Source: Tubiluchus corallicola (Eukaryota; Animalia; Priapulida). From it: 64,000 nt of DNA. The first letter of the stretch is position 1. Every line of letters starts with the position of its first letter. Positions 2,010 through 28,799 of this stretch are shown here, piece after piece. The position numbers were made by a program, and so were the translations under genes. The DNA is taken from NCBI GenBank assembly GCA_030141605.1, contig JAQGDQ010000074.1, positions 372,001 through 436,000 on the forward strand, written 5' to 3'. The notes below the pieces were generated by a model, which did not search any database, was not told the DNA's origin, and was given only the letters and a program-made list of their open reading frames with translations.

Positions 2010-2185
2010 TCAGCGGTCGTGACCAGATGCTTTAGTACTGTGAGACTCTGCATACTTGTCTGTGTTGTGGTAATCACCTTTACCCGCAAAGTAACCTTTG
2101 TCATCGTGGTATGCTTTGAAACCTTTATCATAATAATGCTGCTTTCCTCCTTTATCAACATGCGTGTTGTCAAACTTGTACTTGC
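2010..2185 (-). CDS. Gene A terminal coding exon (GKYKFDNTHVDKGG...ASGHDR*)
   Basis: tttcag|GC acceptor, phase 1; TGA at 2010-2012. 36/56 aa identical to exon 23764..23933. This frame is not in the ORF track. Confidence 0.9.
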
Positions 2186-5100
2186 CTGAAAGTAAATCAA
2201 GTAGATCATATTAAACACATTATACCTAATTCAATGAAAAAAGATTAAAAAAAGAAATAAAAATTTCGTGTTATGTAGCCCTTCTTCCTACCACTGCTTC
2301 GGTACTTTCGCAAGATGCTGCAGCATCACTCCATTAGCGGCCTGTGAATATCCGCAATATAGGCAAAATTCATGCAGACTTCATTCACAAGAAAATCCAT
2401 GAAGATGGGAAAGTGGCTCCCCTAATAAATATTTGCTGTCTGCGAAAAAACCACGAACTTTGTGCTATGTCCACTTTTTTGTCTAAACAACGCCAAACAG
2501 ACAGTATGTGTAATATCATTACAGTATTACGAAACCTTTGGCTTTCCTTTAATAACTACAATTTTTCTGTCATTTAGCCTGATTATTGTTGGTGTCGTTT
2601 GCCGTCGTCCTTATTGTAATGCCGTTATGATCAACATTGTCATTGTCGTCGTCGTCGTCATCATCATCATCATCATCATCATCATCATCATCATCATTAT
2701 GCTGCTTCATCTAACCATCTTTCTAATAGGTCTGTTCTTTTATTGATATCACATATCATAGTTCACTAATGGCCTATTGCAGAGTTCTCAAAGCGCATTC
2801 TCATCTGTTGTATTGGCATCCATAAATGTGACGGCATTATAATTGTTCACAATGTTTAAGGTTATAATTCATAATAGCTTCTAATTTTCATTTACAATTC
2901 AGGTAATTACTTTAGTTGAACACGATGTAATAGGCGAAAATTTCCCCTGCTATTCAGCGCAAATGAACGTGGCTTTTTCCTTCACGTATTGCTAACATAT
3001 CCATTACAGCAAATTTATTCAATTGCCAGTCTCGTAAATTTCAAATCAATGTGCATTTTACATGTGTGCACTGTGCAAATAGACTGTTAGATGCACCACA
3101 ACAATGAAAAATTCACCAAGTCTTCTTTACACAAGCAAAACACGTTCAAATTCTACAGCAAATCAGCGCCTCTTGCTGTTTTACGCACAAAATGTTACCC
3201 ACTTCGACGACAGTGCAGCGCAAGTTTCTTTACGTATATAATTATGAATAGCACTAAAAACGCAAAAAATCCCTTTCTTGTCACGGATTAAAATGCTTTT
3301 CGAGCGGAGAATTTTCTCGTGTTGCTTTGATTATATAAACAGTGTAATATGAAAGTTAAAATGTTTTAGTAAAGTTAGTGCGGCTAAACAACTAAAACAC
3401 TCTCCGAGGTGTAGGAAAGGTAGGGACAAGTGCTAAGAATCCCCTGTTATATACATTATACACTAGGCACACCAAAATGCCATAATTGAGCAAACATGTA
3501 TGTGCGATTACGAAATTTATTTTTATATTACCTGCTCCTTTACTAAAATTGAAATCTCCTTTTCCTTTGTTTCGTCCCCCTTTCCCAGCCAAATATAGTT
3601 CCCCTTTTCCTCCATTATCAGCCTTTGCGCCTTCACTGTTGTACTTCAGCTTGTGGAAGTACTTTTGCCAGTCATTGTTTGACTGAAAATAGAAAAGTGA
3701 GTTGCATTTGTTCTTTGGTGATCTGCACATATGCTCAGTTTCAATCAACCAAAATGGCTGCAGATCAACTAAATTTGAAAAAAAAACATTTCTCAAACAT
3801 TTCTCTTTCTAAAATGAAACACTTGTACAACGGTGCGTGAGCAATCTTTGGAACAACACCCTCTGGCAATACTTAGAAAGCTAGAAAATGCCACAAGCAG
3901 TTTTCCTAGTAGTCACCAAATCATTTTACTGAACAAACTGAACAAACTCGGTATTGCCTAACTTTGACTGCTATGCCCGTATCGCATAGAGACTACACAA
4001 CTGTTTCCTCGCCTAAAAATGATGACGATTATAACTACTCTAAATTGACAAAACTCACCAAATGATCACTCCAATGTACACCCGGACCTCTGCCATAACT
4101 ATGCTCAGCATACCCGCCTCCATGATCTCCATACGCTTGGCTGCCATAACTCCCGTGTCCATCTGCATGCTGTCCATATCCTCCATGTCCACCATTGTCA
4201 TATTTATATCCACCTGTTCCATAGTCATCTCCGTAACTGCTGTAGCTGTCTCCATAGTTATCATAGCCACCTACATGCCCCCCTTTTCCATGACCGCTTC
4301 CATAACCACCATCACTGTATCCTGCTTTGCTGTAACCTCCTCCATGTCCACCATTTCCATAACCTCCATTGCCATGACCTCCTCCATATCCTCCATAGTC
4401 ATCTCCATATCCACCCCCATAGCCCCCATAACCATCTCCATGTCCATAACCACCATGATTGTGATCATCTTTATATTCACTGCCGCCATAGCCACCTCCA
4501 TAACTACCATGACCATCTCCATACCCACTTGCCCCATAGCTTTCTTTACCATGTCCTCCTCCATAACCACCATCGTCATATCCTTCTTTGCTATGACCCC
4601 CACCATAACCTCCATGGTCATCTCGGTGTCCATAACCACCATGACCATGATCACTTTTATAACCAGTACTACTTCCATACCCTCCTTTGCCATGACCTCC
4701 TCCATATCCACCATCATCAAAACCTCCTTTGCTGTAACCTCCTCCATGTTCACTATCTCCGTAACCTCCTTTACCATGACTTCCTCCATAACCGCCATAA
4801 TCGTCTCCATATCCACCAAAGTTGCCACCATAGCCACCTCCATAGCTACTATAACCACCTCCATATCCAGTTTCTCCATACCCTCCTCTTTTGCCATGCC
4901 CTCTTCCATACCCACCAACACCATAACCTCCTTCACTATGACCTCTTCCATAACCACCATGACCATGATCATTTTTATATCCACTGCCACCATAACTGCT
5001 CTTATAACTACTATGACCATCTCCATAGCTACCATAAATATCTCCATATCCACTTCCTTCATATCCTCCTTTGCCGTGCCCTCCTCCATATCCACCATCA

Positions 5101-28340: not shown

Positions 28341-28727
28341 TGTTTCCTACTGATGTAGGTTAAGAACCTTTAAAGACGAAAAAACGAATATTACTTCAAC
28401 ACTGCTCAGGAGTAATGGGTGAACATGACTACAGCTGTCCAAACCTTGCCGAGCCTATCAATTACCTTAAAAGTTAAATTGTGAGCGAAATTATAAAAAA
28501 TCATAATTCGAATAAAAAAACTGCACAAGCCAACATGGAGCTCGGATATTTATGTTTCATTACAACTTAATATTTATTTCTCAAGAATTTACTGTTTAGT
28601 CAACACTATAAAATAAATAAGCGTTTAGTAGAACAAAAATAATCGATTACATATACAATGTAGAGAAAATTTACACGACCTTCATTCCCTTACTTGATAC
28701 TAAATCCTTTATTACAAAATATCTTAC

Positions 28728-28799
28728 CTTATCCTGACACAGTCTGTCACAGATTAAGTTGGCTCATCTACTGTGAATTTAGAAAACAAATTCCTGAAT
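28728..28799 (-). other. Gene C 5'UTR exon
   Basis: Begins at an Inr-like TCATTC (A at 28799) and ends AAG|gtaaga. Confidence 0.65.

What the first reader, a model, noticed from the sequence alone, without database searches (positions are those of the whole stretch)
2010..28799. Two-gene family of secreted Gly/Tyr/His-rich proteins with a shared, unrecognised C-terminal domain
Seen: genes A (611 aa) and C (179 aa) have the same layout: a 15-codon signal exon, a Gly-rich exon ending W-x-x-x-hydrophobic, a 151-nt exon and a terminal exon, with intron phases 0,0,1. Their last ~106 aa align without gaps at 69/106 identity (NDWQKY.H.LKY.S.GAK.D.GG.G.LYL.GK...GKGDF.FSKG.GKYKFDNT..D.GGKQ.Y.D.GFK..H.D.G.F.G.G.YHN.DKY..SH..K.SGH), while the introns show no evident similarity. 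This points to purifying selection. The mature chains have no Cys. Known: a signal peptide, a low-complexity GGY/GHG core and a conserved terminal domain is the general design of load-bearing secreted proteins (spidroins for the terminal-domain design; suckerins, squid-beak His-rich proteins, shematrins, Nereis jaw Nvjp-1 and sandcastle-worm cement proteins for the composition). Inference: a lineage-specific biomaterial system (tooth, jaw, cuticle, shell, egg case or glue) in which long and short members co-assemble through the shared domain. I do not recognise the domain, but cannot exclude that it is already described.
Basis: partly seen in the sequence, partly recalled or inferred. Interest (0 to 1): 0.85.

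Follow-up and report, generated by a model that had tools for sequence, protein, structure and literature searches.

The report
Glycine-aromatic zipper module in priapulid-type proteins
Two genes, likely from a priapulid-like marine worm, encode predicted secreted glycine-rich proteins that end in the same unnamed 105-residue module, also found in Priapulus, whose glycines line up opposite bulky residues when the chain is folded back on itself, so it likely zips into one long two-stranded ribbon that would help build a tough material such as cuticle.

Summary
The two gene models are in the sequence as stated: all 6 introns are GT-AG, the last 106 residues match at 69 of 106 without gaps, and synonymous sites are saturated. 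Splicing and expression are untested. The module has no Pfam, NCBIfam or PDB match. One real relative came up among 1.84 billion representatives, searched with the first half only: uncharacterized Priapulus caudatus LOC106810609, gapless over 105 columns. The neighbouring receptor gene also groups with Priapulus. The module does not look like a spidroin-type globular domain: it is hydrophilic and 15 of gene A's 18 glycines are invariant. New here: in one antiparallel register (i+j=95, 39 pairs) glycines face large residues in all three proteins, beyond shuffles and controls. The test was chosen after looking, and AlphaFold gave no confident fold. Best reading: secreted structural proteins, probably of cuticle, whose self-complementary module zips into a long beta-ribbon as a hairpin or between chains. 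Rivals: antimicrobial proteins, remote DUF4779 kin, or a disordered binding tail.

The parts
7447..7491 (-). Gene A coding exon 1 (15 codons, first part of predicted signal peptide); acceptor just upstream near 7501
4059..5522 (-). Gene A exon 2 (488 codons): end of signal peptide, then Gly 41%, Tyr 16%, His 9%, Asp+Glu 10% repetitive core ending Trp-x-x-x-Leu
3532..3682 (-). Gene A exon 3 (151 nt): module residues 1-50; predicted outgoing strand and turn (residues 47-48 at about 3539-3544)
2010..2185 (-). Gene A exon 4: module residues 51-108 and stop; predicted returning strand
1852..1857 (-). AATAAA, candidate polyadenylation signal of gene A
   Evidence: consensus match only
28728..28799 (-). 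Candidate non-coding first exon of gene C, with a TATA-like box at 28830 and a GTAAG donor
   Evidence: predicted from consensus only
28296..28340 (-). Gene C coding exon 1 (15 codons, first part of predicted signal peptide); acceptor upstream near 28368
26766..26939 (-). Gene C exon 2 (58 codons): end of signal peptide, short Gly-rich core starting QYGYG, ending Trp-x-x-x-Phe
24527..24677 (-). Gene C exon 3 (151 nt): module residues 1-50
23764..23933 (-). Gene C exon 4: module residues 51-106 and stop
9957..21734 (+). Unrelated class C (metabotropic glutamate receptor-like) GPCR gene between genes A and C; used here only to place the animal

Best explanation
Genes A and C encode predicted secreted structural proteins, likely of the cuticle of a priapulid-like worm, and their shared 105-residue end module likely zips into one long antiparallel two-stranded beta-ribbon in which glycines sit opposite aromatic or other bulky residues. 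Shown: the gene models, the gapless conservation across A, C and Priapulus, and the glycine-opposite-bulky pattern in register i+j=95. Inferred: the chain turns back at residues 47-48, close to the exon 3/4 junction, giving about 39 pairs (about 13 nm at the textbook 0.33-0.34 nm per residue). The same register would also let two extended chains pair head to tail, like a palindrome, so A could pair with C; sequence cannot tell hairpin from dimer. Inferred by analogy only: the module folds on assembly rather than alone, and carries a Gly/Tyr/His tail of variable length (about 20, 52 and 480 residues) that stays flexible and offers Tyr and His for cross-linking or metal binding; A's acidic core (net about -21) could also bind the basic modules (+6 to +11).
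For: Gapless three-way alignment over 105 columns, 43 invariant, including 15 of gene A's 18 Gly. Invariant columns alternate i,i+2 as on one face of a strand (p=0.002, 10000 permutations). Gly-versus-large score peaks at register 95: 0 of 2000 column shuffles reach it; 0-1 of 1000 for each of six block sizes. It is the top register in A, C and Priapulus taken singly (0, 2, 2 of 300 residue shuffles; 1, 2, 10 of 300 nine-residue block shuffles), while 0 of 8 control windows pass (5 from A's own Gly-rich core, 3 from the GPCR; 35-255 of 300). In that register 12 of 17, 11 of 15 and 12 of 18 Gly face a large residue (4.4, 4.4, 6.2 expected) and none faces Gly; invariant Lys34 faces invariant Asp61 and Asn38 faces Asn57. 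Taxon: only real module relative is Priapulus caudatus XP_014669501.1; the neighbouring GPCR falls in a 5-row clade whose only named rows are Priapulus, support 100/98. Composition: GGY x34, GHG x18, DYG x5 in A's core, like Nereis jaw proteins and suckerin M2 blocks as described in PMC9999432 (passages). That priapulids have a moulted cuticle, with lorica in larvae, is in PMC8588615 (passages).
Against: AlphaFold2 gave no confident fold for the Priapulus protein, alone (mean pLDDT 44.5) or with a 3-row alignment (38.0), and the only short strands it drew pair module residues 58-60 with 66-68, not register 95; the Atlas model has pLDDT 0.25. The pairing score was chosen after looking at the data: of three scores tried, side-chain volume also ranked 95 first but was not significant (p=0.09) and charge ranked 69 first (p=0.14); with aromatics only and 9-residue blocks 45 of 1000 shuffles reach the score. 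Variable columns do not preferentially face variable columns in register 95 (0.59; best register 112 at 0.71). The three sequences are homologues, not independent tests. The repeated motif G-x-G-x-large-x-large is self-complementary by itself. No expression, tissue or proteomic data. The GPCR tree has no named arthropod, nematode or annelid row and the window's branch is long (1.11). His is only 8%, against 27% in Nereis jaw protein.
Confidence: 0.45

Rival explanations
1. The proteins are structural and secreted, but the module stays disordered and is conserved because it binds a partner surface such as chitin, a polyanion or another protein; the pairing pattern is a by-product of repeated Gly/aromatic motifs.
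For: All three modules fall on the disordered side of the charge-hydropathy boundary (0.30-0.33 against 0.43-0.45); no confident fold; internal repeats at lags 39 and 9 (3 of 500 shuffles). The C-terminal part of chiton RTMP1, behind a Gly-rich repeat, binds chitin (bioRxiv 10.1101/2024.11.02.621658, passages).
Against: No insertion or deletion in 105 columns between sequences only 47-65% identical, and invariant Gly in alternating positions, are unusual for a disordered tail (inference); block shuffles that keep the motifs rarely reach the register-95 score.
Confidence: 0.2
2. They are remote members of the arthropod His-rich family DUF4779 (PF16009), so the module is a diverged form of an already listed domain shared across moulting animals.
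For: ESM Atlas feature search with the Priapulus protein ranks arthropod clusters first: unnamed 0.87, then DUF4779 clusters 0.84 and 0.83; 10 of the 10 best hits with a family share that family or clan.
Against: Scores are under 0.9 and share 143-158 features, below the 170 that true family members usually share; a third of shuffled proteins do as well. hmmscan of Pfam gives 0 families for the whole Priapulus protein at E up to 10 and for the 4 module exons at E up to 1 (filters drop weak matches). No DUF4779 sequence could be fetched for a direct comparison.
Confidence: 0.15
3. They are Gly-rich antimicrobial or wound proteins secreted by the epidermis or blood cells.
For: Protein C is basic (pI 9.2) and its predicted mature start QYGYG differs by one letter from the QWGYG motif that follows the signal peptide in C. 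elegans NLP/CNC antimicrobial peptides, which are basic, rich in Gly and aromatics and secreted into the cuticle (PMC11993903, passages). GGH-repeat shepherin I is antifungal as Zn-induced fibrils (PMC10698721, passages); A has 11 GGH.
Against: A lacks the motif, is about 590 residues and net acidic; the Priapulus protein starts QYGGY. The most conserved part is the 105-residue module, not the Gly-rich start. A five-letter Gly/Tyr motif arises easily in such sequence.
Confidence: 0.1
4. Same ribbon module, but the product is not cuticle: egg envelope, adhesive or mucus secretion.
For: Nothing in the data fixes the tissue; Gly/Tyr-rich secreted proteins are used in eggshells and glues (recalled, not tested here).
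Against: None tested; cuticle is preferred only because the animal is likely a moulting worm and His/Tyr/Gly-rich proteins are common in sclerotised cuticle (PMC8062583, passages).
Confidence: 0.1

Closest known systems
Priapulus caudatus uncharacterized protein LOC106810609 (XP_014669501.1)
   Same: True homologue: signal-like start, short Gly-containing linker, Trp five residues before the module, module gapless at 54 of 105 (A) and 49 of 105 (C) identity, same best pairing register.
   Different: Only about 20 residues between signal and module; no name or function given by its sources.
Nereis jaw proteins NVJP-1 / Nai11527
   Same: Secreted, Gly 36% (A: 37%), acidic residues, DYG, GGH and GYGHG motifs; random coil that turns beta-rich and fibrillar at seawater pH with Zn (PMC9999432 and PMC13120676, passages).
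   Different: His 27% against 8% in A and 4% in C; Tyr 7% against 14%; annelid. No sequence comparison was made; resemblance is compositional.
Suckerins (squid sucker ring teeth)
   Same: Amorphous GGY-rich blocks joined to beta-forming blocks (PMC9999432, passages).
   Different: Suckerins repeat short Ala/Thr/His blocks between prolines; A has 1 Pro and 2.7% Ala, C has none, and the predicted beta part is one long terminal module.
Spidroins
   Same: Variable repetitive core with a conserved terminal part that could drive assembly.
   Different: Spidroin terminal domains are globular and at both ends (PMC9999432, passage); here one hydrophilic module with no hydrophobic core and no Pfam match.
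DUF4779 (PF16009) His-rich proteins of arthropods
   Same: Nearest named family by language-model features (0.83-0.84).
   Different: No HMM match; feature score is at lead level only.
Chiton RTMP1
   Same: Signal peptide, Gly-rich repeat, conserved aromatic-rich C-terminal part (bioRxiv 10.1101/2024.11.02.621658, passages).
   Different: About 19% Ser, described as chiton-specific; the window's GPCR groups with Priapulus and apart from the mollusc rows. No direct sequence comparison.

Membership tests
Spidroins | Globular conserved N- and C-terminal domains flanking a long repeat block | tested here: not met
   0 Pfam families for all exons of A and C tested and for the Priapulus protein; 0 PDB sequences at E up to 10; module hydropathy on the disordered side
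Suckerins | [Pro-M1-Pro-M2]n with Ala/Thr/His-rich M1 blocks | tested here: not met
   1 Pro in mature A, 0 in C; Ala 2.7% and 3.8%
Suckerins | GGY-rich amorphous blocks | tested here: met
   34 GGY in A's core; composition only
Nereis jaw proteins (NVJP) | Gly about 36% and His about 27% | tested here: not met
   Gly 37% met, His 8% (A) and 4% (C) not met
Nereis jaw proteins (NVJP) | Zn-dependent hardening and fibril formation | not testable with these tools
   needs recombinant protein
CPR cuticular proteins (Rebers-Riddiford consensus) | Chitin-binding R&R domain | tested here: not met
   0 Pfam families
DUF4779 (PF16009) | Match to the Pfam profile | tested here: not met
   0 families at E up to 10 for the whole Priapulus protein and up to 1 for module exons; HMMER filters drop weak matches
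DUF4779 (PF16009) | Remote kinship by features or structure | tested here: inconclusive
   Atlas 0.83-0.84, 143-150 shared features; no usable hit for gene C exon 4 alone
C. elegans NLP/CNC antimicrobial peptides | QWGYG right after the signal peptide; basic, Gly- and aromatic-rich | tested here: inconclusive
   C has QYGYG and pI 9.2; A has no such motif and pI 6.4; Priapulus QYGGY
Chiton RTMP1 | Sequence homology in Phe/Trp/His-rich domains; about 19% Ser | tested here: inconclusive
   Ser 8.5% (A) and 5% (C); no RTMP1 sequence was compared directly
Cuticular structural proteins in the broad sense | Made by epidermis at the moult and present in cuticle | not testable with these tools
   no RNA holder listed; no proteomics

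The most novel reading that the evidence does not exclude
An undescribed building block of priapulid (perhaps scalidophoran) cuticle: a palindrome-like 105-residue module that forms a roughly 13-nm two-stranded beta-ribbon held by glycine-aromatic pairs with no hydrophobic core, able to pair within one chain or between different family members, so that proteins with very short and very long Gly/Tyr/His tails co-polymerise and tune the material.
Probability: 0.3. Interest if true: 0.75.

Novelty: new variant of a known kind. Interest (0 to 1): 0.52.

Why it matters
My searches of the held library found no paper on priapulid cuticle proteins, so a conserved family would be a first molecular handle on the cuticle, teeth or lorica of a group that matters for the origin of moulting animals. 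The module also makes a sharp, cheap prediction (register i+j=95) about an assembly device that differs from spidroin terminal domains and suckerin blocks and could be used in designed protein materials. If the ribbon is wrong, this is one more lineage-restricted Gly-rich secreted family, of modest interest.

Tried and rejected
No genome is held for this window, so family size is unknown; tblastn finds no third copy in the window. Expression: no RNA holder listed; run X1 covers introns and shows no splice joint, X2 lays only 3 short pieces; neither bears on expression. High contig depth over 3741-5480 in X1 (55-137 against about 4-8) first suggested extra copies of exon 2, but one such contig ends in a tail that I recall as an Illumina adapter and the tool says depth is no copy number; not used. 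Word-indexed protein searches: exon 4 alignment, 0 of 9 candidates; alignment with the Priapulus protein, 255-2000 aa only, 0 of 538; the 80-254 aa range was not searched with the full module. Hit P0114 (1 of 2 hits) was dropped: an 11-fold tandem repeat matching 16 profile positions. Metagenome contigs: 0 of 433 and 0 of 589 stretches confirmed. NCBIfam: one E 0.12 match to the signal region only. Complex prediction of two copies of the Priapulus module: no answer, score 0.00, alignment not used; not evidence either way. No fold search was run because both models are low-confidence. MAFFT misplaced exon 4 on exon 3 in five-row alignments (one search also had one reference in the wrong frame); these were not used. 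My first by-eye registers (71 and 155, a three-stranded meander) were not top-ranked and were dropped. AGGTCA half-sites are at chance level, 23 against 23.5, so no claim on moult regulation. Chiton origin was considered and dropped. Paper searches: DUF4779 0 papers; PF16009 0 occurrences (the InterPro number in that search was a recalled guess).

Full report
Observation. Gene A (7447-7491, 4059-5522, 3532-3682, 2010-2185) gives 611 aa and gene C (28296-28340, 26766-26939, 24527-24677, 23764-23933) gives 179 aa. All 6 of 6 introns are GT..AG, phases 0,0,1. The last 106 residues match at 69 of 106 with no gap, far beyond composition (score 369, best of 2000 shuffles 99). Second codon positions match at 86 of 106 and third at 42 of 106; pN is 0.25 and pS 0.80, so synonymous sites are saturated and dN/dS cannot be given as a number but is well under 1. 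Both N-termini have one hydrophobic stretch that runs into exon 2, and nothing hydrophobic after it. The models are predictions: no RNA holder was listed and the contigs laid show no splice joint, which is no evidence either way.

Where it comes from. No genome is held. A class C GPCR gene lies between A and C on the plus strand. Its best hits are at most 40% identical (109 hits). A quick tree with 64 of the 109 hits and a careful tree with 27 of the 109 both put it in a five-row clade whose only named rows are Priapulus caudatus (SH-aLRT 99; then 100/98), apart from brachiopod, mollusc, hemichordate and echinoderm rows. No named arthropod, nematode or annelid row was present, and the branch is long, so 'priapulid-like worm, not P. 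caudatus itself' is likely but not shown. An earlier unchecked note on this genome reached the same guess.

Relatives of the module. No Pfam family for any of the 6 exon products tested or for the Priapulus protein, nothing relevant in NCBIfam, 0 PDB sequences. An exhaustive HMMER search of 1,835,955,588 representatives with the exon 3 half gave 2 hits; one is a spurious tandem repeat, the other is P. caudatus uncharacterized LOC106810609, 145 aa. It has a signal-like start, about 20 linker residues, the same Trp before the module, and aligns without a gap over 105 columns, 54 identical to A and 49 to C (shuffle maxima 116 against scores 300 and 289). Word-indexed and metagenome searches found nothing more, but these are weak, and the full module was never searched exhaustively. 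The ESM Atlas points loosely to arthropod DUF4779 clusters (0.83-0.84, lead level). Paper searches found no paper with DUF4779 and none holding Priapulus, cuticle proteins, Scalidophora and genome together; listings showed none on priapulid cuticle proteins. The library lacks most subscription papers, and I read no supplements.

Anatomy of the module. It is 17% Gly, 17-18% Lys, rich in Asp, Asn, Tyr, Phe and His, has no Cys or Pro, is basic (+6 to +11), and lies on the disordered side of the charge-hydropathy boundary. Yet 43 of 105 columns are invariant, among them 15 of A's 18 Gly, with no indel, and invariant columns alternate i,i+2 (p=0.002). It holds four copies of G-x-G-x-large and several D-x-G motifs, with internal repeats at lags 39 and 9 (3 of 500 shuffles). 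This is not what a globular spidroin-type terminal domain looks like; it suggests extended strands in strict register.

The pairing test. I scored every antiparallel register i+j for complementarity, taking the best register in each shuffle as the null. Three scores were tried: volume ranked 95 first but p=0.09; charge ranked 69 first, p=0.14; Gly facing a large residue ranked 95 first over 39 pairs, reached by 0 of 2000 shuffles. Over four definitions and six block sizes the count ranged from 0 to 45 of 1000, and was 0-1 for the original definition. Register 95 is top in each protein alone, and 0 of 8 control windows pass, including five from A's own Gly-rich core. 12 of 17, 11 of 15 and 12 of 18 glycines face a large residue and none faces glycine. 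The turn falls at residues 47-48, next to the conserved phase-1 intron after residue 50, so exon 3 would be the outgoing and exon 4 the returning strand. Stabilisation of glycine in beta sheets by a cross-strand aromatic is a known effect (recalled; I saw only the title of Merkel and Regan 1998 in a reference list). Against: the score was chosen after looking; my first by-eye registers failed; variable columns do not pair with variable columns in this register; the three sequences are kin; AlphaFold2 gave pLDDT 44.5 and 38.0 with 1 and 3 rows and drew a different short pair.

How it likely works. The proteins are likely exported by epidermis. The module is likely unfolded alone and zips on assembly into a two-stranded ribbon of about 13 nm, either as a hairpin or, because the pattern is palindrome-like, head to tail with a second chain. 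The tail differs in length (about 20 residues in Priapulus, 52 in C, 481 in A) and has expanded by internal duplication in A (a 30-residue exact repeat at 126 and 388). By analogy with Nereis jaw proteins, which go from coil to beta-rich fibrils at seawater pH with Zn (PMC9999432, passages), and with His-rich insect cuticle proteins cross-linked through quinones (PMC8062583, passages), Tyr and His of the tail would be cross-linking or metal sites. Tissue and role are inferred from composition and the likely taxon only.

Known systems. It works, at best guess, like other Gly/Tyr/His-rich unmineralised hard-tissue proteins, but fails the tested membership features of spidroins, suckerins, NVJP and CPR proteins. 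DUF4779 kinship and the NLP/CNC antimicrobial resemblance (QYGYG in C against QWGYG; PMC11993903, passages) stay open. What I saw of papers: passages of bioRxiv 10.1101/2024.11.02.621658, PMC8062583, PMC9999432, PMC13120676, PMC8588615, PMC11993903 and PMC10698721; search listings and abstract starts for the rest.

Verdict. A real, old, unnamed family shared with Priapulus; a new variant of a known kind. The interest lies in the testable zipper ribbon. Interest 0.52; about 0.75 if the ribbon and cuticle role hold (probability about 0.3).

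Noticed in passing
window 9957-21734 (+): Class C GPCR (metabotropic glutamate receptor-like) gene with at least five coding exons, only 40% identical to its best hit, on a long branch beside Priapulus receptors.
   Followed up: partly
window 3741-5480: In run X1 contig depth is 55-137 over exon 2 of gene A and the first 318 nt of the next intron, against about 4-8 on either side; one contig goes back 51 nt at 5480 and ends in an adapter-like tail. Library artefact or extra copies; unresolved.
   Followed up: partly
window 4262-5076: Several X1 contigs and one X2 contig match exon 2 only briefly and run on unlike it, which hints at other Gly/Tyr/His-rich genes in this or a related animal.
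   Followed up: no
window 4059-5522 (-): Gene A's core holds a 30-residue exact repeat (residues 126 and 388) within longer 67-75% identical DNA repeats, so it has grown by recent internal duplication.
   Followed up: partly
window 55359-55841: About 480-nt element with long inverted arms (90-94% complementary in parts), MITE-like; related sequence at 36825-37436.
   Followed up: no
window 8343-8362 (-): Two AGGTCA half-sites 8 nt apart just behind a TATAA upstream of gene A, the only such pair in the window; single half-sites are at chance level.
   Followed up: partly
window 6253-6483 and 7041-7293: Dispersed repeats in gene A's first coding intron, also at 31083-31582 and very deep in run X1.
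   Followed up: no
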